From: Candidatus Aminicenantes bacterium
Lineage (GTDB): Bacteria; Acidobacteriota; Aminicenantia; Aminicenantales; JAFGBC01
Length of the DNA stretch: 64,000 bases
Assembly: GCA_022867325.1 (NCBI GenBank)
Contig: JALHUR010000084.1
Location: forward strand, 6,084-70,083
Direction of reading: 5' to 3'
The position numbers and the translations under genes were made by a program. Below are positions 8,935 through 63,567 of the stretch, one piece after another; position 1 is the stretch's first letter, and each line of letters begins with the position of its first letter. The notes under the pieces were generated by a model. The model worked only from the letters and a program-made list of their open reading frames with translations, did not search any database and was not told the DNA's origin.

Positions 8935-10092
8935 CTACTTCGCGTCCCGGACGGGGCCGACCACTTCGTGGGCGATGACCAGGCGCTGAATCTCGTTCGT
9001 TCCCTCGTAGATCTGGAGAAGCTTCGCGTCCCGCATCAGCTTCTCCATCGGATAGTCTTTCATATAGCCGTACCCTCCGCAAATTTGAAGGGCTTCGGTC
9101 GTCGTCCGCATGGCCACGTCGCTGGCAAAGCACTTGGCCATGGCCGATTCTTTCCCGCAGGGTTTTCCCCGGTCCATCAGCCAGGCCGCGTTCCAGACGA
9201 GATGGCGGGCCGCGTTGATCTCCATGGCCATCTGGGCGATCTTGAGCTGGTTGGCCTGGAAAAGGGCGATCGCTTTCCCGAACTGGACCCGTTTCTTGGC
9301 GTACTCGACGGCATAGTCGAGCGCCGCCCGGGCGACCCCGACTCCGGCCGCCCCGACCGGGGCCCGTGTGTTGTCGAGCGTCTTCATGGCGACCATGAAT
9401 CCCAAGCCTTCCCGCCCCAGCAGGTTCGCCCGCGGAACCCGAACGTCGTCGAAGAAGACCTCGGCCGTGTTCGAGGCCCGGTGACCCATCTTGTCCTCGA
9501 CCTTTCCGACCGAGACTCCGGGCGTGTCGCGCGGGACGATGACGGCGCTGATTCCCCGCTTGCCCTTGCCGGGCGCGGTCAGGGCGAAGACGACGTAGAG
9601 GTCGGCGATCCCGCCGTTGGTGATGAAGCACTTGGACCCGTTGATGACGAAATCGGAGCCGTCCTTGAGGGCCCGGCTCTTGAGGCCGCCCGCGTCCGAA
9701 CCGGCTTCCCGCTCGGTCAGGCAGAAGGAGGCGAACGTCATCTTGCGGGTCGCGGGCGCCAGGAAGCGCTTTTTCTGTTCGGGCGAACCGAACAGGATGA
9801 GCGGCGTGTAGGCCAGGGAATTGGCCATGATCGTCGTGTACATGCCCGCGCAGCCGGCCGCCAGCTCTTCGCTGACGATGACCGTGTCGACGTTGCCCAG
9901 CTCTCCCCCGCCGTACTCGGCCGGAATGTTGCAGGTCATGAAGCCCGCCTCGAAAGCTTTCTGGAAGACGTCGGTCGGCGTCTCGTGGCCTTGATCGTAC
10001 TTGGCCGCCTTGGGTTTCATCTCTTTTTCGGCGAACTCGCGGGCCATTTCACGAAGGGCCAGCTGTTCTTCGGACAAGCTGAAATCAATCAT
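8935..10092 (-). CDS. acyl-CoA dehydrogenase
   Basis: 385 aa. Full-length ACAD similarity (MIDFSLSEEQLALREMAREFAEKEM ... YEGTNEIQRLVIA). Confidence 0.9.
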   Translation of the reverse strand: MIDFSLSEEQLALREMAREFAEKEMKPKAAKYDQGHETPTDVFQKAFEAGFMTCNIPAEYGGGELGNVDTVIVSEELAAGCAGMYTTIMANSLAYTPLILFGSPEQKKRFLAPATRKMTFASFCLTEREAGSDAGGLKSRALKDGSDFVINGSKCFITNGGIADLYVVFALTAPGKGKRGISAVIVPRDTPGVSVGKVEDKMGHRASNTAEVFFDDVRVPRANLLGREGLGFMVAMKTLDNTRAPVGAAGVGVARAALDYAVEYAKKRVQFGKAIALFQANQLKIAQMAMEINAARHLVWNAAWLMDRGKPCGKESAMAKCFASDVAMRTTTEALQICGGYGYMKDYPMEKLMRDAKLLQIYEGTNEIQRLVIAHEVVGPVRDAK

Positions 10093-12844
10093 TGTCTTTT
10101 CCTCTCCCGGGGCTCGGACGTTCGCCGAGACGTTGACCTTTTATACCCGAATCGAGAATCTCTGTCAAACCCTCGACTCCCCGGCCTGAAGGCCGGGGCT
10201 TGGTCAGGGTTGACCCTGAGCCGCCCTTTTCGTCCCCGCCTTGAAAGGAGGGGCTTAGCGTCGGCGAACGGGTCAATTTGGCCGTTTCCCCGCGCGGCGC
10301 GGCGGGGAGCACGGGCAGGAACCGGACTTCCTCACGGGCCATATCGTAGACCTGGTCCTCGAGGTTCAGGAGCTCGAAGACGACATCCTGGGGCCTGGGC
10401 GCTTTGCCGGGGCCTTGCGGGATGATCAGGACGAGGATCCGGGGAGGGCCCGACATTCGAATTTGGAGTCCGGACTCTCCTCCCTTGTCCTCGAGAAAGC
10501 GCCGGATCAGGGCGGAGAGCCTGTCGGCAAAGGAACCGTCCGGGATTTCTTTCCGGGCGCAGGCCGTCCGGACCGCTTCTTCCGCTTCGGGTCGATCAAG
10601 ATTCAGCGAATAGACCATGGAATGGACCGCCCGGGATAAAGGCGGCTCCGAATCGGCTAAAAGCCTAAGCTCAAGAAAACGGACGCCCTCCGGGGCCGAT
10701 GCGTTGAGGCGAACGATCGTCTCTTGGGCGGAGAGGGCGGTCCTGGATTTGAGCTCCAGGCAATCCTTTTTGGCCTCCATCCCCAGGGGAAGCGCGGGGA
10801 GAAACGAGACGATCATTTTGGGATGGAACCCTTCGGACATGGCGACCGAAAGGCCGGCCCTCCGGAATATTCTCTGGAGGACGTTGATGAGATCGAGATG
10901 GGACATGAAACGCGCCCGTCCTCCCTTTGAGTAAAAAAGACGGTAGCGAAGAGGCTGGGCGGAATCGCGGCCGAGACGAGGGAAAGGCTCTTCTCGATCG
11001 CCGGCCTCCCCTTCCTCGGAGGACCTGTCCAGGAAAGCGGGCAAGTCGCAGCCCCGGCAGTCGGCGCAAGTCCTTTCCAGACAGGACGGGGTCCTCTCCT
11101 CCGCCATGGCCCTGTCGAGCTCGCCTTGCAGGAATTCTTTCCTGACGCCGGTGTCGATATGGTCCCAGGGCAATAAGGCGTCGCGGTCCAGGGCGCCGAG
11201 ATAATCTCCTTTCTCGATGCCCGACGACATGAAGGCCTGCTCCCAACAGCGGGCCTGGAAACGGTCCTTCCAGCCGTCAAAACGGGCTCCATTCTCCCAG
11301 GCCGCCCTGAGAAGACGGGAGACCGCCCGATCTCCTCGCGAGAGTACCGCTTCCAGCACGGATTTCTCAACCGGATGGTCCTTGAAATCGATGAAACGGA
11401 ACCTTTTCAAACGATCCTTGAGGAAAGCCTGTTTTTCAAGGAGAGTCTCCGGTCCGTCCATGGCCTGCCATTGGAAGGGCGTATGCGGTTTAGGTATGAA
11501 TGAGGAGACGCTGAGGTTGAAGCGCGGCGGCGAATGGAGGATCGATCGGCCTTCCTCGACGAGGGCCTTGACGAGATCGACGATTGCAACCAGGTCTTCG
11601 TCCCGCTCCGTCGGCAGCCCGATCATGAAATAGAGCTTGAGAAGCCTCCAGCCATGGCGGAAAGCGCTCCGGGCCGCTTCGAAGATGTCGGCATCGTCGA
11701 GGTGCTTGTTAATGACCCGGCGCAACCTCTCGGTCCCGGCCTCGGGGACCAGGGTCAGGCCGGTCTTACGGACCGTGAGGATGCTCCGGACGATTTCGGT
11801 CGAGACGCCCTTGGGCCTCAATGACGACAGGGAGAGTGAAATCTTATCGGGCTCGAGCTCGGCCATGGCTTTCTTGATCAAACCGTCGAGGCCGGGATAG
11901 TCGCTCAGGGAAAGGGCGGTCAGGGACGCGTCTTCGTAGCCTGTCGCCCGCAGGCTTTTTTTCATCGTATTGAGGATGAACGCCCGGCTTTTGACCCGGA
12001 AGGGATGGTAGAGGGTTGTGGCCTGGCAGAACCTGCATTTATGGGGGCAGCCGCGGGCCGCCTCGACCGCGACGCGGTCGAATACGGCTTTAATGTTGGG
12101 GACGACGATGTCCTCCGGGAAATAAGACTCCCGGAACGACCGAACGATTCTTTTCTTTATGCGGGAAGGTTCCCCCGGCCCGGCCTTAACGGCCAGGAGT
12201 CTTGAGCGGTCCGGCCGATAGGTCTCGTAGAGGGACGGGACATAAACGCCGGGAATCCCGGCCAAATCCTTGAGAATCCGGCCCCTGTCTTGGGCGGCCC
12301 CTTTGAGCTCGATCAGCCGTTCGACGATTTCCGGGAATGCCTCCTCGCCGTCGCCGATCAGGAAGAGGTCGAAGAAATCCGCGACGGGCTCGGGATTGAA
12401 GGCGGACGGGCCGCCGGCGATGACGAGAGGATGGTTTCCGGTCCGGTTCGCCGCGAGAAGGGGGATCCGGCCCAAATCGAGCATGGTCAGGATGTTCGTC
12501 GCGTTGAGCTCGTAGAGGAGCGAAAAGCCCACGATGTCGAACCGGCCGAGCGGAGTGGCCGTCTCCAGCGAGAAGAGCGGAAGATCCCGCGCCCGGAGCT
12601 CGGCCTCGCAATCCGGCCAGGGCGCGAAGACGCGTTCGGCCTGGATATGGGGACGGTTGTTGAGGATGGCGTAGAGGATCTTCTGCCCCAGATACGACAT
12701 GCCGATTTCATAAACGTCGGGAAAGGCGAGCGCGACCCTGGCCCTGACGGCGGCCGGATCCTTGCGGCGGGCGTTCCATTCCCCTCCCGTGTAGCGGGCC
12801 GGCTTCTCGACCCGGCGCAGGACCCGGTCCAGGCCGTCAGACAT
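10085..12844 (-). CDS. B12-binding radical SAM protein (TIGR03960 family) fused to DUF2344 (TIGR03936)
   Basis: 919 aa with radical SAM Cys cluster AARGCPHKCRFCQ, followed by a DUF2344-like C-terminal half. The last about 65 codons read through repeat copy A1. 8-nt overlaps with rodA upstream and ACAD downstream. Confidence 0.8.
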   Translation of the reverse strand: MSDGLDRVLRRVEKPARYTGGEWNARRKDPAAVRARVALAFPDVYEIGMSYLGQKILYAILNNRPHIQAERVFAPWPDCEAELRARDLPLFSLETATPLGRFDIVGFSLLYELNATNILTMLDLGRIPLLAANRTGNHPLVIAGGPSAFNPEPVADFFDLFLIGDGEEAFPEIVERLIELKGAAQDRGRILKDLAGIPGVYVPSLYETYRPDRSRLLAVKAGPGEPSRIKKRIVRSFRESYFPEDIVVPNIKAVFDRVAVEAARGCPHKCRFCQATTLYHPFRVKSRAFILNTMKKSLRATGYEDASLTALSLSDYPGLDGLIKKAMAELEPDKISLSLSSLRPKGVSTEIVRSILTVRKTGLTLVPEAGTERLRRVINKHLDDADIFEAARSAFRHGWRLLKLYFMIGLPTERDEDLVAIVDLVKALVEEGRSILHSPPRFNLSVSSFIPKPHTPFQWQAMDGPETLLEKQAFLKDRLKRFRFIDFKDHPVEKSVLEAVLSRGDRAVSRLLRAAWENGARFDGWKDRFQARCWEQAFMSSGIEKGDYLGALDRDALLPWDHIDTGVRKEFLQGELDRAMAEERTPSCLERTCADCRGCDLPAFLDRSSEEGEAGDREEPFPRLGRDSAQPLRYRLFYSKGGRARFMSHLDLINVLQRIFRRAGLSVAMSEGFHPKMIVSFLPALPLGMEAKKDCLELKSRTALSAQETIVRLNASAPEGVRFLELRLLADSEPPLSRAVHSMVYSLNLDRPEAEEAVRTACARKEIPDGSFADRLSALIRRFLEDKGGESGLQIRMSGPPRILVLIIPQGPGKAPRPQDVVFELLNLEDQVYDMAREEVRFLPVLPAAPRGETAKLTRSPTLSPSFQGGDEKGGSGSTLTKPRPSGRGVEGLTEILDSGIKGQRLGERPSPGRGKDND
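10133..10168 (-). promoter_or_regulatory. putative internal promoter TTGACA-17-TATAAA for the acyl-CoA dehydrogenase gene; the -35 lies at the edge of repeat A1
   Basis: Minus strand: ggtTTGACAgagattctcgattcgggTATAAAagg, about 40 nt upstream of ACAD ATG at 10092. Confidence 0.35.
10181..10290 (-). repeat. palindromic mosaic repeat, family A copy 1 (minus orientation)
   Basis: Minus strand reads ttgacccgttcgccgacgcta...ggcggggacgaaaag...gctcagggtcaaccctga...ccccggccttcaggccgggg...gggtttgaca. Homologous to copies at 28880-29109 and 45287-45350. Confidence 0.7.
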
Positions 12845-18145: not shown

Positions 18146-18305
18146 GTTAAACCTGCCGTCCGTACCCGACTATTACTAACACAATTCGTCCCGGGACGCA
18201 ATCGGAAACCGGACGCGCGGCCGGGGGGTAGAGGGGTTGACACGTTCGCCGAGCCTCAGTGTTACCCCTGGACAAGCCTTGGCACTTATGCCGGCGGTCG
18301 AGGGG

Positions 18306-18335
18306 TTGACTTTGGACAGGGAAATTGAATATAAA
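18306..18335 (+). promoter_or_regulatory. putative sigma-70 promoter TTGACT-18-TATAAA for the OPT transporter gene
   Basis: ggggTTGACTttggacagggaaattgaaTATAAAttatg. AAAGGAG RBS before ATG 18367. Confidence 0.4.
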
Positions 18336-18366
18336 TTATGCATTACGTCCCGCAAAGGAGTATCGG

Positions 18367-20412
18367 ATGAAGCATCAGCCCTACGTTCCCGAGAAAACCG
18401 AGATGAGGGAGTTCACCCTGCGGGCCCTCCTGATCGGATTGATCATGACGGTCATCCTGGGCGCCGCCAACGCCTATCTCGGTCTCCGGGCCGGGATGAC
18501 GATCGCGGCGACCTACCCGGCCGCCGTCATCGGCATGGCCGTTCTCAGGATCTTCAAGGGATCGATCCTTGAAGAAAACTTAGCGCGGACGGTCGGCTCG
18601 ATCGGCGAGTCCGTGGCCGCAGGCGCCATCTTCACCATACCCGCCTTCCTGATCGCCCGCGTCTGGGTGAAATTCAACACCGTCGAGGCCTACCTCAAGA
18701 CGTCCGCCCTCCTGTTCGTGGGCGGCGTCCTCGGAATTCTGTTCGTCACCTTCCTGCGCCGGGTCATGGTCAGCGATCCCGACCTGACCTTCCCGGAGTC
18801 GGTCGCCGCCGCCGAGATCCACAAGGCCGGCCAGAAAGGCAGCGCCGGGGCCAAGCACCTTTTCCAGGCGATGGGCCTGGGAGCCGTCTTCTACGCCCTG
18901 GGCGTCGCCCAGCTCTATGCCCAGAGCAAGGATTTCATCATCAAGATCGGAACGATCGCATCGAGCTTCGTGCGCTTCGGAACCGAACAGAACTCGCCCA
19001 AGATCGATGCGGGCGGCACGGTCGCCGTCTCCGGGCCCGGCATTTACCCGGCCTATCTCGGAGTCGGCTACATCATCGGCCCGCGGCTGGCTTCCCTCAA
19101 CTTCGCGGGCGGCGTGCTGGCCTGGGGTCTGTTCGCCCCCCTCCTCATGTTCGTCCTCGGCCCGCAGCTCATCGCCAAGTTCTACGGCCCGGGCATCGCC
19201 ATGGCCGACGTCGCCTGGCCGGACCTCGTGACCAACGTCTGGAAATTCATCATCCGTCCGATCGCGGTCGGCGGCATGCTCGTCGGCGCCGGCTACACCC
19301 TGTACCGGATGAGGAAAAACCTGGCGGCGGGCATGAAGCGATCGTTGGGCGACGTCAAGAAGGCCGCCGGGCAGGCCGAAACGACCTCCCGGCTCGAAAA
19401 AGACCTTAACATCAAGGTCGTCCTGGGCGGGCTGGGCCTGACGTTCGTCCTCATGATTCTCGTCTACCGGGTTTTCGCCGGCGCGTTCGGTCCGGCCGTT
19501 ATCGCGGCCATCGTCATGGCCTTGGCCGGATTCTTCTTCGCCGCCGTCTCGGGGAACCTGGTCGGCACGATCGGCTCTTCGAACAATCCGATCTCGGGTC
19601 TTACTTTATCGACGCTCATCATCGCCGCCCTCCTCATGGTCGTTGTCGGAGCTTCCGGAACGAGCGGAGTCTCCGCCGTCCTGGGCGTGGCCGCGGTCGT
19701 CTGCGTCTCCTCGGCCGTCGCCGGCGAGATGCTCCAAGACCTCAAAGTCGGGCATATCCTGGGCGGCACGCCCTGGAAGATGCAGGTCGGCAATATTTTC
19801 GGCATCCTTTTCGCTTCCCTGGTCCTCTATTTTCCCTTGATGCTCCTGATCGGCGCCTTCGAGCTCGGAAGCAAGGATCTAGCCGCTCCCCAGGCGGGAT
19901 TGATGGCGGCCCTCGCCCAGGGCATTGTCGGCGGCGAGATGGCCTGGCCGCTCGTCATCGTCGGCATGCTGATGGGCTTCGCCTTTATCCTGATCCAGGT
20001 TCGATCGCCGATGCTGGTCGCGGTCGGGATGTACCTCCCGCTCGAGACTACCTTCGCCATTTTCGTCGGCGGCATGTTCAAAGGGATCGTCGACAGGCTC
20101 GCCGCCAAGAGGGGGCTCAATGCGGCCCAGAAGGCGCGGACCGAAAACATCGGCATCCTCCTTGCGGCCGGACTGATCGCGGGCGAAAGCCTGACCGGGC
20201 TGCTGCGCGCCCTCTGGAAGTTCCTCTTCCTCCAAAACGTCCTCAAGTTCGACATCCCCAAGATCTTCAAGGGCACGAGCTATTTCGGCGGCTTCGACCT
20301 GTACTTCGGCGGGCTCGCCGTCCTCATCCTGATCGCGCTCTATCTCATCTACAAGCCGCTCCGGAACGCCGGGGCCGCCGACGAGCCGCCGCCGCCGTCG
20401 GCCATCATCTGA
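18367..20412 (+). CDS. OPT-family oligopeptide transporter
   Basis: Start ATG 18367 (MKHQPYVPEK...) after AAAGGAG. 681 aa polytopic membrane protein with OPT family similarity. Confidence 0.85.
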   Translation: MKHQPYVPEKTEMREFTLRALLIGLIMTVILGAANAYLGLRAGMTIAATYPAAVIGMAVLRIFKGSILEENLARTVGSIGESVAAGAIFTIPAFLIARVWVKFNTVEAYLKTSALLFVGGVLGILFVTFLRRVMVSDPDLTFPESVAAAEIHKAGQKGSAGAKHLFQAMGLGAVFYALGVAQLYAQSKDFIIKIGTIASSFVRFGTEQNSPKIDAGGTVAVSGPGIYPAYLGVGYIIGPRLASLNFAGGVLAWGLFAPLLMFVLGPQLIAKFYGPGIAMADVAWPDLVTNVWKFIIRPIAVGGMLVGAGYTLYRMRKNLAAGMKRSLGDVKKAAGQAETTSRLEKDLNIKVVLGGLGLTFVLMILVYRVFAGAFGPAVIAAIVMALAGFFFAAVSGNLVGTIGSSNNPISGLTLSTLIIAALLMVVVGASGTSGVSAVLGVAAVVCVSSAVAGEMLQDLKVGHILGGTPWKMQVGNIFGILFASLVLYFPLMLLIGAFELGSKDLAAPQAGLMAALAQGIVGGEMAWPLVIVGMLMGFAFILIQVRSPMLVAVGMYLPLETTFAIFVGGMFKGIVDRLAAKRGLNAAQKARTENIGILLAAGLIAGESLTGLLRALWKFLFLQNVLKFDIPKIFKGTSYFGGFDLYFGGLAVLILIALYLIYKPLRNAGAADEPPPPSAII

Positions 20413-28879: not shown

Positions 28880-29109
28880 GCTCCTCCCGGTTGACGGACC
28901 GGATGCGAATTTGACCCGTTCGCCGACGCTACCCCGCCCTGAAAGGCGGGGACGAGAAGCGACACTTTTGTACTCAGCCCCTTGAGAGGAGATGGGGCTG
29001 AGTGGGCTCAGGGTTAACCCTGAGCAAGCCCCGCCTTGCAGTACTCAAGGAGCCGAAACAACGGCTCCTTGGGTGCCGGCATTCATGCCGGGGCGTCGAT
29101 GGGTTGACA
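28880..29109 (+). repeat. palindromic mosaic repeat, family A copy 2 (longest copy, with an extra internal hairpin module)
   Basis: ...cggttgacggaccggatgcgaatttgacccgttcgccgacgctaccccgccctgaaaggcggggacgagaagcgac[ctcagcccc..ggggctgag]ggctcagggttaaccctgag...ccggcattcatgccggggcgtcgatgggTTGACA. Confidence 0.7.
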
Positions 29110-29132: not shown

Positions 29133-29171
29133 CGACAATAAGAGATGTTCATCTCATCAAGGAGACCGTTC

Positions 29172-33038: not shown

Positions 33039-33243
33039 GCTGATGGGTGCGCTCGATCCGTTGACGGACGGCGAATCCCCTCCGCGCCATTCCACGGACG
33101 TCAGTCCGTGGAGGGATAGCGTATCGTCGCTTCGGGGACAGGCAGCGGTTTCGCAGTACTCATGAACCGGAAACGGTTCATGGGTGCGCTCCACCGCCTT
33201 CGACGGGCAGATCCCCGGACGTAAGTTCGTGGAGCTTCAGTCC
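33039..33243 (+). repeat. palindromic mosaic repeat, family B copy 1 (tandem units bounded by ccacggacgtNagtccgtgg hairpins)
   Basis: Begins 5 nt after the DUF5107 stop. Contains atgggtgcgctc modules, gaaccgGAAAcggttc and ccacggacgtcagtccgtggag / ccccggacgtaagttcgtggagcttcagt. Confidence 0.7.
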
Positions 33244-41645: not shown

Positions 41646-41808
41646 TAATCCCCTTCGAGGGATTCCACGGACGTTAGTCCATGGAGGAACCCCCTTTCGG
41701 GGGCTGGCAGCGATTTTGCAGTGCCCTTGAACCGGAAACGGTTCGTGTGCGCGCTCCGACGCCTGCAAAGGGTAGATCCCATGGACGTAAGTCCGTGGAG
41801 CTTCAGTA
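41646..41808 (+). repeat. palindromic mosaic repeat, family B copy 2
   Basis: Begins 14 nt after the GWxTD1 stop. attccacggacgttagtccatggag ... gaaccgGAAAcggttc ... gcgcgctccgacgcctgcaaagggtagatcccatggacGTAAgtccgtggagcttcagt. Confidence 0.7.
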
Positions 41809-45273: not shown

Positions 45274-45286
45274 GTCGTCTCTTTCA

Positions 45287-45424
45287 CCCGTTCGCCGACG
45301 CTACGCCGCCCTGAAAGGCGGGGACGAGAAGCGAGGCTCAGGGTTAACTTCCGCGCTTCGGGGACAGGCGCTCCAACACCTGCAAAGGGCAGATCCCACG
45401 GACGTAAGTCCGTGGAGCTTCAGT
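45287..45424 (+). repeat. composite repeat: family A copy 3 fused to a short family B copy 3
   Basis: cacccgttcgccgacgctacgccgccctgaaaggcggggacgagaagcgaggctcagggttaac | ttccgcgcttcggggacaggcgctccaacacctgcaaagggcagatcccacggacGTAAgtccgtggagcttcagt. Confidence 0.7.
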
Positions 45425-63459: not shown

Positions 63460-63567
63460 GTCCCTCCTCACCGGATTCAAGCTGACTCCATGATAGGAAT
63501 GGACCCGTTAAAAGTCAACCATCGAGGATTTGACAAAACCCGGCGCCCTTCCTAAGATACACGGAAG

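What the first reader, a model, noticed from the sequence alone, without database searches (positions are those of the whole stretch)
10085..10290. Repeat copy A1 embedded in the 3' end of the radical SAM gene, giving it a repeat-encoded C-terminal tail
The 919-aa TIGR03960/DUF2344 ORF has no stop until 10085. Its last about 65 codons are read straight through repeat A1, giving the tail TLSPSFQGGDEKGGSGSTLTKPRPSGRGVEGLTEILDSGIKGQRL.... This part is low-complexity and Gly/Pro/Ser-rich. The DUF2344 portion, about 300 aa, is longer than the roughly 220-250 aa I recall for stand-alone homologs. This suggests an element insertion that removed the native stop. That would be an example of repeat-driven protein C-terminus remodelling. 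The same region also has to carry the ACAD promoter.
Basis: inference. Interest (0 to 1): 0.5.

Follow-up and report, generated by a model that had tools for sequence, protein, structure and literature searches.

The report
Mobile repeat inside a gene's tail
A 108-base mobile repeat recently landed in the promoter of the next gene, inside a stop-less, unstructured extension of a radical SAM gene; it added 36 junk residues but did not cause the loss of the stop codon.

Summary
The 919-aa TIGR03960/TIGR03936 ORF (10085..12844, minus strand) has no stop until TGA at 10085-10087, 5 nt past the ACAD ATG. Only 36 tail codons (R859-T894; 10164..10271) are repeat-encoded. The last 25 codons are the ACAD promoter, 5'UTR and start.

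Strain-level relatives (98-99% nt identity, at least 17 contigs) lack the 108 nt yet have the same stop-less read-through (883 aa). The stop was therefore absent before the insertion. One relative has TGA where the window has GGG (codon 852). A more distant one stops at the TGA inside the ACAD -35 box TTGACA, in another frame.

The tail is predicted disordered and evolves like non-coding DNA.

The more interesting result is the repeat itself. It belongs to a multi-copy, hairpin-rich MITE-like family of Aminicenantes, with a modal unit of exactly 108 nt. The unit is flanked by TTGAC on the left and ends in TTGAC, and 40% of right ends have a -10-like hexamer 16-18 nt downstream. It appears to insert at -35 boxes and regenerate them. 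The same ACAD -35 carries a diverged tandem array in another lineage. How it moves is unknown.

The parts
10085..12844 (-). Radical SAM ORF, 919 aa: TIGR03960 B12-binding radical SAM fused to TIGR03936/DUF2344. Last gene of an mreB-mreC-mreD-mrdA-rodA-rSAM string.
   Evidence: ORF. TIGR03960 residues 6-596, E=4e-198; TIGR03936 residues 633-767, E=1e-39. (Pfam). (synteny in L085). Exact sequence is NCBI MCJ7586938.1.
10307..10948 (-). DUF2344/TIGR03936 domain proper, residues 633-846. The last beta-strand is MAREEVRF (835-842).
   Evidence: AlphaFold2 model of residues 619-919 with a 42-sequence alignment: pLDDT above 90 up to about residue 846. Homolog C-termini end 0-19 residues after F842.
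10277..10306 (-). Lineage-specific short tail PAAPRGETAK (847-856). It contains codon 852 (GGG, 10289..10291), where relative L084 has the stop TGA, and a GC hairpin CCCCGCCGCGCCGCGCGGGG (10288..10307).
   Evidence: Alignment A2. P0124 and P0126 end ...LPAAPR*.
10272..10276 (-). Left TTGAC: the target pentanucleotide, or the left copy of a duplication. Read as L857 and the first two bases of T858.
   Evidence: The filled/empty comparison places the indel boundary within this 5-nt ambiguity. The left flank is TTGAC in about 41 of 56 family copies.
10164..10271 (-). Repeat copy A1, 108 nt, encoding R859-T894 in frame. It ends in TTGAC (10164..10168). Three hairpins or palindromes lie at 10234..10253, 10204..10219 and 10179..10198.
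   Evidence: Absent from L001, L085, L088, L089, L084 and L002 as one clean 108-nt gap. The family unit is exactly 108 nt in 22 of 43 copies. RNA fold -73.9 kcal/mol, z = -3.6. Canonical DNA fold z = -4.35.
10163..10168 (-). ACAD promoter -35 hexamer TTGACA. Its TTGAC is now supplied by the right end of the element.
   Evidence: Invariant in all 7 aligned relatives, while the 17-nt spacer varies. The empty site reads AAATTGACAGAG.
10140..10145 (-). ACAD promoter -10 hexamer TATAAA, 17 nt after the -35.
   Evidence: Invariant in 7 relatives, including one at 80% amino-acid identity. The tool's consensus scan does not call it because position 6 is A rather than T.
10100..10108 (-). ACAD ribosome-binding site GGGAGAGGA, 7 nt before the ATG. 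It is read as part of the radical SAM tail (PGRG).
   Evidence: Sequence. Conserved in relatives.
8935..10092 (-). Acyl-CoA dehydrogenase gene, 385 aa. Its ATG (10092..10090) precedes the radical SAM stop TGA (10087..10085).
   Evidence: Pfam Acyl-CoA_dh N, M and C domains.
28911..29108 (+). Longer composite copy of the same family, with extra hairpin modules inserted. The right end TTGACA (29104..29109) is followed by 17 nt and GATAAT, upstream of the gene starting at 29145.
18219..18310 (+). A partial right end plus one degenerate unit of the family. The right end TTGACT (18306..18311) is followed by 18 nt and TATAAA (18330..18335), upstream of the OPT transporter gene (ATG 18367). Polymorphic between strains.
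45283..45348 (+). Truncated copy (left end, hairpin 1 and half of the palindrome) fused to a second repeat family, in a convergent intergenic region.

Best explanation
Copy A1 is a very recent insertion of a 108-nt, non-coding, hairpin-rich MITE-like element of Aminicenantes at the TTGAC of the -35 box of the ACAD promoter. The element ends in TTGAC, so the -35 hexamer is rebuilt at the correct 17-nt distance from the -10.

In this species the radical SAM ORF had already lost any stop upstream of that promoter, so it ran through the ACAD promoter, 5'UTR and start codon to the first in-frame TGA (883-aa allele). The stop-less state arose in one of two ways. Either a TGA at codon 852 changed to GGR, or a 4-nt frame change took the ORF out of frame with the TGA inside TTGACA.

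The element is 36 codons long and open in that frame. Its insertion therefore lengthened an existing junk tail from 32 to 68 residues beyond codon 851 without changing what follows. The tail is disordered, is not conserved as protein, and is most likely a tolerated by-product.

Shown: the insertion polymorphism, the prior absence of the stop, conservation of the promoter hexamers, and the family's TTGAC ends with -10 association. Inferred: that the promoter still works, that the tail is translated and harmless, and how the element moves.
For: 1. L001 (97-98% nt identity) and L085/L087 (98.3-99.2%) align to the window over 16-22 kb. The only large differences are the 108-nt gap at 10169-10271 and a second repeat-family site at 18215-18296.

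2. The 883-aa alleles lacking the repeat share the read-through tail ...KLTE(I/A)(L/P)DSGIKGQRL...DND. P0122 alone is found on 17 contigs. The 919-aa form is seen once.

3. L084 has CGC TGA where the window has CGC GGG and L001 has CGC GGA. L002 stops at AAT TGA inside TTGACA after a 4-nt length difference.

4. Between the window and L085, the gene body differs at 0.55% (9 synonymous, 5 non-synonymous). The tail differs at 4.4% (0 synonymous, 5 non-synonymous). Against L001 the tail shows 1 synonymous and 5 non-synonymous changes.

5. In the AlphaFold2 model, pLDDT is 40-58 with no secondary structure for residues about 849-919.

6. Family level. The 17-mer CCCGTTCGCCGACGCTA hits dozens of sites in several Aminicenantes MAGs. 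The unit is 108 nt in 22 of 43 copies. The left flank is TTGAC in about 41 of 56 copies and the right end in about 52 of 56, with two mirrored TTTAC/TTTAC pairs.

7. A -10-like hexamer lies 16-18 nt after the right TTGACN in 21 of 52 copies (40%), against 0-8% at other spacings. Other TTGACW sites in the same loci show 21% (Fisher p = 0.007).

8. L092, a lineage at 73% amino-acid identity, carries 2.2 tandem 105-nt units of a diverged subtype at exactly the same ACAD -35 TTGAC. L091 has element-end-like TCGAGGGTT directly before that -35.
Against: The filled allele is seen only in the window's own MAG. Both junctions gave 0 hits in the JGI metagenome contigs, so there is no independent confirmation of the insertion.

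No transposase partner or cargo-bearing copy was found in the held loci. Terminal inverted repeats are weak. Mobility is therefore inferred only from the presence/absence polymorphism, near-identical copies and nested insertions.

The -10 (TATAAA) lacks the canonical T at position 6, and the tool's scan reports no promoter.

The direction of the stop change at codon 852 (loss in the 883/919 clade, or gain in L084) is not resolved.

The crude test of orientation relative to downstream genes was inconclusive: 16 of 36 against 10 of 36.
Confidence: 0.8

Rival explanations
1. One reading: insertion of the repeat destroyed or displaced the native stop codon and so created the C-terminal extension.
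For: The repeat is in frame, stop-free and lies inside the extension.
Against: At least 17 contigs of strain-level relatives lack the repeat and still read through to the same TGA. The empty site AAATTGACAGAG holds no in-frame stop in that frame. Stops in other relatives lie upstream of the insertion point or inside TTGACA in another frame.
Confidence: 0.03
2. The element is ancestral at this site and was precisely lost from the 883-aa strains. The window would then keep the old state.
For: The same -35 site is occupied by related units in L092, and possibly by a relic in L091. The site therefore has a history of occupancy. Seamless excision is known for some element classes (own knowledge: IS200/IS605).
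Against: All six strain-level contigs, the 857-aa strain L084 and the 80% relative L002 are empty with an identical clean junction. The L092 units are a different subtype with a 105-nt period. One gain is more parsimonious than several precise losses.
Confidence: 0.07
3. Assembly artefact: the 108 nt were wrongly placed in the MAG contig by repeat-induced mis-assembly.
For: The filled allele occurs once, and there are no junction hits in the metagenome contigs.
Against: The insert has the exact family anatomy: left TTGAC, a 108-nt unit and a right TTGAC. It sits in otherwise collinear sequence. Its sequence is only about 84% identical to the other copies in the window, so it was not copied from them.
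Confidence: 0.05
4. The extension, repeat part included, is a functional addition to the protein. It could act as a disordered linker or interaction tail, or translation through the ACAD ribosome-binding site could couple expression of the two genes.
For: The 883-aa read-through allele is common in nature (17 contigs). The stop overlaps the ACAD start in the ATGATTGA arrangement typical of coupled genes. Translating ribosomes would melt the element's hairpins.
Against: All 5 substitutions between the window and L085 in the tail are non-synonymous, and the tail evolves about 8 times faster than the gene body. The conserved positions are the promoter hexamers and the RBS, not codons. The tail is predicted disordered. 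Other lineages do without it.
Confidence: 0.08
5. The repeats are primarily cis-regulatory modules, for example the 20-bp palindrome GCTCAGGGTTAACCCTGAGC as a transcription-factor site upstream of promoters, rather than selfish mobile DNA.
For: Constant position immediately upstream of -35 boxes. A perfect palindrome is present in some copies.
Against: Presence/absence differs between strains that are 99% identical. There are nested insertions, truncated and tandem copies, and copies in convergent intergenic regions. Copies within a genome are near-identical. The two ideas are not mutually exclusive.
Confidence: 0.1

Closest known systems
Rickettsia palindromic elements (RPEs) and other MITEs found in frame inside ORFs (ERIC, BOX, QMITE1)
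   Same: A short, hairpin-forming, multi-copy element whose length is a multiple of three and which is open in the host frame. It adds a peptide segment to a host protein without breaking it (review PMC10969869).
   Different: RPEs are inserted inside many functional genes and encode a conserved peptide. Here only one copy is seen inside an ORF. It lies in an already unconstrained tail, and the family is otherwise intergenic and sits at promoters.
Correia elements (Neisseria) and IS ends that carry outward-facing -35 boxes (hybrid promoters)
   Same: A small repeat whose terminus supplies a sigma-70-type promoter hexamer to the adjacent gene (PMC10969869; IS hybrid promoters from own knowledge).
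   Different: Correia elements duplicate TA and bring complete promoters. Here the target itself is TTGAC, and the empty site already holds a working-looking promoter. The element replaces like with like rather than creating a promoter.
PATEs, the non-autonomous derivatives of IS200/IS605 elements (own knowledge)
   Same: No convincing terminal inverted repeats. Subterminal hairpins near both ends. Always the same orientation relative to an asymmetric 5-nt sequence on the left flank.
   Different: The right end carries the same pentanucleotide as the left flank, and two copies show mirrored variants (TTTAC/TTTAC). This fits a 5-bp (or 3-bp TTG) target duplication equally well. No Y1 transposase was identified.
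REP/BIME mosaics, REPINs, and IS1397-type insertion into REP loops (own knowledge)
   Same: Mosaic arrays of short GC-rich palindromes in intergenic DNA. Other repeat families are nested in hairpin loops.
   Different: No GTAG/CTAC-type REP head. The location is upstream of promoters rather than after genes. No RAYT gene was tested.
C-terminal extension by stop-codon loss into the downstream intergenic region
   Same: Substitution at a stop codon (TGA against GGR at codon 852) or a frame change lets translation run to the next in-frame stop.
   Different: The extension crosses a functional-looking promoter, RBS and start codon of the next gene, and then served as landing site for a mobile element.

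Membership tests
TIGR03960 + TIGR03936 (DUF2344) fused radical SAM protein | Whole-protein score above the curated NCBIfam cut-offs for both models | tested here: met
   TIGR03960 scores 659.7 bits (cut-off 462.3). TIGR03936 scores 136 bits (cut-off 71.9). Pfam Radical_SAM_N2, Radical_SAM and DUF2344 are all found.
MITE (miniature inverted-repeat transposable element) | Small, non-coding, many copies per genome | tested here: met
   108-nt modal unit. Dozens of copies in each of several Aminicenantes MAGs. No Rfam family matches.
MITE (miniature inverted-repeat transposable element) | Presence/absence polymorphism at orthologous sites | tested here: met
   The window is filled. L001, L085-L090, L084 and L002 are empty at the same site.
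MITE (miniature inverted-repeat transposable element) | Terminal inverted repeats | tested here: inconclusive
   Only a weak 7-9-nt match between the ends (ACCCGTTCG against CGAGGGGT), read from the sequences. The internal palindrome pairs with both ends in the folds.
MITE (miniature inverted-repeat transposable element) | Target-site duplication | tested here: inconclusive
   TTGAC lies on both sides, and the empty site has one copy. Two mirrored TTTAC pairs exist, but about 12 left-only variants do as well. This cannot be separated from 'insertion 3' of TTGAC by an element that ends in TTGAC'.
IS200/IS605-derived PATE | Subterminal hairpins, fixed orientation next to a specific 4-5-nt target, no terminal inverted repeats | tested here: met
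   Hairpins lie 18 nt from the left end and 15 nt from the right end. All of about 56 copies have the same orientation relative to TTGAC.
IS200/IS605-derived PATE | A cognate Y1 (HUH) transposase gene flanked by the same ends | not tested
   No copy longer than 361 nt was found between matched ends in the held loci. Whole genomes could not be scanned.
REP/REPIN | Conserved GTAG-type head on 20-40-nt palindromes, and an associated RAYT gene | tested here: not met
   No such head is visible in the aligned copies. RAYT genes were not searched.
RPE-like in-frame coding repeats | Repeated in-frame insertion in many ORFs with a conserved encoded peptide | tested here: not met
   Only A1 is seen inside an ORF. 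Other copies are intergenic and upstream of promoters.
Sigma-70-type promoter (ACAD) | -35 and -10 hexamers at 16-18 nt spacing, conserved across relatives, upstream of the RBS and ATG | tested here: met
   TTGACA, 17 nt, TATAAA is invariant in 7 sequences while the spacer varies. The strict consensus scan fails it because of A at position 6. The transcription start was not measured.

The most novel reading that the evidence does not exclude
The repeat belongs to an undescribed family of Aminicenantes mobile elements that dock specifically on the TTGAC of sigma-70 -35 boxes and carry their own terminal TTGAC. Every insertion would then rebuild the promoter it lands in and leave a fresh target behind, allowing tandem arrays. 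This would be a 'promoter-safe' niche for selfish DNA. It could also swap the DNA upstream of promoters, and thus their regulation, between strains.
Probability: 0.45. Interest if true: 0.6.

Novelty: new member of a known kind. Interest (0 to 1): 0.4.

Why it matters
For annotation, the 919-aa and 883-aa lengths of this radical SAM protein are artefacts of stop loss plus a mobile repeat. They are not a new domain, and the functional protein ends near residue 846.

For biology, the locus is a clean, strain-resolved example of an ORF running through the next gene's promoter and then being lengthened in frame by a mobile element.

It also exposes a high-copy repeat family in an uncultured phylum. 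That family accounts for both large structural differences seen in 22 kb between strains about 99% identical. It appears to use -35 boxes as safe landing sites. If confirmed, that targeting rule would be a useful marker for promoters in Aminicenantes genomes and an example of a transposon strategy that avoids harming host expression.

Tried and rejected
1. Rfam, whole window at gathering thresholds and 10000-10400 at E up to 1: only sub-threshold chance hits.

2. Rfam on the extra sequence in L085's mreB-OPT spacer: nothing.

3. The tool's promoter/terminator scan of 9900-10500: no calls. The -10 is TATAAA, and there is no intrinsic terminator between the two genes.

4. Covariation in the hairpins across 25 copies: the copies are too similar, with only 2 pairs showing double changes. 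The structure rests on folding energy alone.

5. Search for an autonomous, cargo-bearing copy between matched ends in all held loci: none found.

6. Two metagenome scans for the filled-allele junctions: 0 hits.

7. Orientation test against downstream gene starts: 16 of 36 against 10 of 36, not decisive.

8. Literature searches for Aminicenantes repeats or transposable elements, and for MITEs with TTGAC: nothing relevant.

9. I first attributed the read-through solely to the 4-nt frame difference from L002. L084's in-frame TGA at codon 852 shows a second possible route, so I left the polarity open.

Full report
**What is at the coordinates**

On the minus strand an ORF runs from 12844 to 10085 (919 aa). 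It matches TIGR03960 (residues 6-596, E = 4e-198) and TIGR03936/DUF2344 (residues 633-767) above the curated cut-offs.

Its stop TGA (10087..10085) lies 5 nt past the ATG (10092..10090) of a 385-aa acyl-CoA dehydrogenase (ACAD) gene, an 8-nt overlap. The exact protein is in NCBI as MCJ7586938.1 from a Candidatus Aminicenantes MAG.

**Where the domain ends**

Among 120 listed homologs nearly all are 836-870 aa. In a 42-sequence alignment the homologs carry 0-19 residues (median 7) after the last conserved Phe (F842 here). The window carries 77.

An AlphaFold2 model of residues 619-919 is confident (pLDDT above 90) up to about residue 846, with the last strand at 835-842. It then drops to pLDDT 40-58 with no secondary structure. 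The DUF2344 part is therefore of normal size, and all the excess is a disordered tail.

**What the tail is made of**

Aligning the window with contigs that encode the closest homologs gives one clean 108-nt gap. The window reads AAATTGAC|CCGTTCGCC...GTCGAGGGTTTGAC|AGAG. L001, L085, L088, L089, L084 and L002 all read AAATTGACAGAG.

The inserted unit is 10164..10271, with the boundary ambiguous within TTGAC. It encodes R859-T894. Residues E895-D919 are not repeat. They are the ACAD upstream region and the first 8 nt of the ACAD coding sequence:
- TTGACA at 10168..10163
- a 17-nt spacer
- TATAAA at 10145..10140
- GGGAGAGGA at 10108..10100
- the ATG at 10092..10090

The two hexamers are invariant in all seven sequences, including one at only 80% protein identity, while the spacer varies. 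The tool's strict consensus scan does not call this promoter because position 6 of the -10 is A. It also finds no intrinsic terminator between the genes.

**Did the insertion remove the stop? No.**

L001 is 97-98% identical in DNA to the window, and L085/L087 are 98.3-99.2% identical over 22 kb. They lack the element, yet their ORFs read through to the same TGA, giving 883 aa. That allele occurs in P0001, P0122 (17 contigs), P0125 and P0127. The 919-aa form occurs once.

Stops in other relatives lie elsewhere:
- L084 (857 aa) has CGC TGA where the window has CGC GGG (10291..10289, codon 852) and L001 has CGC GGA.
- L002 (854 aa) differs by a 4-nt length change upstream and stops at AAT TGA, the TGA inside TTGACA.
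- L091 stops at a TGA just before the -35.
- L092 stops at a TAG further upstream.

The stop-less state therefore arose either by TGA to GGR at codon 852, or earlier through the frame change with L084 regaining a stop. Both are one-step scenarios and I cannot polarise them. Either way it preceded the element and is independent of it. The element then added 36 codons in frame.

**Is the open frame remarkable, and is the tail constrained?**

A 68-codon stop-free run at this composition has p of about 0.09, and two of the element's three sense frames are open.

Between the window and L085 the gene body differs at 0.55% (9 synonymous, 5 non-synonymous). The tail, with the element removed, differs at 4.4%, and all 5 changes are non-synonymous. 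Against L001 the body shows 35 synonymous and 20 non-synonymous changes, and the tail 1 and 5. The conserved positions are the promoter and RBS elements. The tail behaves as non-coding DNA that happens to be translated.

**What the repeat is**

Rfam has nothing for it. Related copies in the window lie at 28911-29108, 18219-18310 and 45283-45348.

The left-end 17-mer CCCGTTCGCCGACGCTA hits 81 or more sites in the species-representative genomes. About 55 are in a handful of Aminicenantes MAGs, including the complete chromosome OY969696.1. The rest are single chance hits in unrelated taxa.

The canonical unit is [TTGA]CCCGTTCGCCGACGCTAAGCCCCGCCTTTCAAGGCGGGGACAAGAAGCGAGGCTCAGGGTTAACCCCGAACAAGCCCCGGCATTCATGCCGGGGACTCGAGGGGTTGAC. 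Its features are:
- The unit is exactly 108 nt in 22 of 43 measured copies.
- Copies within one genome are nearly identical.
- Short 53-nt forms exist, as do composites with other hairpin families nested in the loop of hairpin 1 or in the central palindrome, and tandem arrangements.
- It folds into two or three strong hairpins (z = -3.6 as RNA in context, z = -4.35 as DNA).
- The copies are too similar for covariation to add anything.

**The TTGAC and -35 association**

The 5 nt before the unit are TTGAC in about 41 of 56 copies, with one-mismatch variants otherwise. The unit ends in TTGAC in about 52 of 56. Two copies have TTTAC on both sides.

Downstream of the right TTGAC(A/T), a -10-like hexamer (at least 4 of 6 matches, with A at position 2 and T at position 6) lies at spacing 16-18 in 21 of 52 copies (40%). 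At other spacings the figure is 0-8%, with a sharp peak at 17-18. Other TTGACW sites in the same loci give 21% (Fisher p = 0.007).

In the window, three of the four copies sit this way in front of a co-oriented gene: ACAD, the OPT transporter, and the gene starting at 29145.

The empty ACAD site already has the complete promoter, so the element did not create it. It landed on TTGAC and rebuilt it.

The same ACAD -35 is occupied in another lineage. L092 (73% protein identity) has 2.2 tandem 105-nt units of a diverged subtype ending in ...GCGGTTTGAC|AGCGGG, followed by TATAAA. L091 has TCGAGGGTT, identical to A1's right end, directly before its TTGACA. This may be a relic.

**Mechanism**

Two readings fit the data.
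- (a) A MITE with weak terminal inverted repeats and a 5-bp (or 3-bp) duplication of a preferred target TTGAC. In this reading the right copy is kept by selection as the -35 while the left copy drifts.
- (b) An IS200/IS605-type (PATE-like) element that inserts 3' of TTGAC and itself ends in TTGAC. This would explain the fixed orientation on an asymmetric target and the subterminal hairpins.

No autonomous copy or transposase was found in the DNA I hold, so this stays open. The crude orientation test was inconclusive (16 of 36 against 10 of 36).

**Caveats**

The filled allele is known only from the window's MAG. Both junction patterns gave no hit in the JGI metagenome contigs.

I consider an assembly artefact unlikely. 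The insert has the exact family anatomy in collinear sequence, and it is only about 84% identical to the other copies in the window.

Promoter function, translation of the tail and its harmlessness are all inferred.

**Comparison with known systems**

In-frame MITE insertions that add peptide segments are known, notably Rickettsia palindromic elements (RPEs), and MITEs that carry promoter hexamers are known, notably Correia elements (review PMC10969869). This case is a new example of the first kind, and an incidental one.

The family's apparent rule of landing on a -35 box and replacing it is, to my knowledge and in the literature I could search, not described. It is the part worth following up.

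**Verdict**

The protein tail is an ordinary by-product. The repeat family is a moderately interesting new member, possibly a new variant, of small bacterial mobile repeats.

Noticed in passing
window 18146-18367, compared with L085 4183-4699 (minus strand): The mreB-OPT intergenic spacer is the only other large structural difference in 22 kb between the window and strains about 99% identical. L085 has an extra 72-nt module of the same repeat family before the final GTCGAGGGGTTGAC. It also has about 240 nt of additional sequence that the window lacks. That extra sequence has no Rfam match.
   Followed up: partly
L092 3110-3340: In a lineage at 73% protein identity, the same ACAD -35 site carries 2.2 tandem 105-nt units (98% alike) of a diverged subtype of the element. 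The radical SAM gene there stops at a TAG immediately before the array.
   Followed up: partly
L091 4040-4080: The radical SAM stop TGA is directly followed by TCGAGGGTTTGACAGAG. The 9 nt before the -35 are identical to the right end of copy A1. This may be a relic of an old element, and part of that protein's short tail (WPPDHSSSGPST) may be relic-encoded.
   Followed up: no
window 33074-33235, 41647-41807, 45368-45424: A second repeat family (GATCCCACGGACGTAAGTCCGTGGAGCTTCA and neighbouring modules). In other Aminicenantes genomes it is found nested in the loop of hairpin 1 of the first family, between TTTCA and GGGCGGGG. It ends in CTTCA, so it seems to follow the same logic of ending in its own target with a different short target.
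   Followed up: partly
loci L024, L033, L047, L058, L075, L083: A third small palindromic insert (CTACGGGGAGCAG...CTGCTCCCCGTAGTA) sits inside the central GGGTTA|ACCCC palindrome of the element. The repeats insert into one another in layers.
   Followed up: no
window 10288-10307 (minus strand): The GC hairpin CCCCGCCGCGCCGCGCGGGG just upstream of the insertion encodes the tail residues P-A-A-P-R-G. It resembles hairpin 1 of the element (CCCCGCC...GGCGGGG) and is absent from L002. The 'native' short tail may itself derive from an older element.
   Followed up: no
window 63522-63557: TCGAGGATTTGACA, 17 nt, then TAAGAT: a promoter-like site whose upstream 8 nt resemble the element's right end, but with no other part of the element. 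It is either a solo end or a sign that the element's terminus mimics a common extended -35 context.
   Followed up: no
window 12837-12844 and 10085-10092; L001 1903-1910: The genes mrdA, rodA, the radical SAM gene and ACAD are chained by 8-nt start/stop overlaps. The last overlap (radical SAM/ACAD) is not ancestral. It exists only in the read-through alleles.
   Followed up: partly
window 8968-10425 (plus strand): A 485-aa ORF antisense to ACAD also runs straight through the repeat. It is spurious. It illustrates how easily stop-free frames arise in this G+C-rich genome.
   Followed up: no
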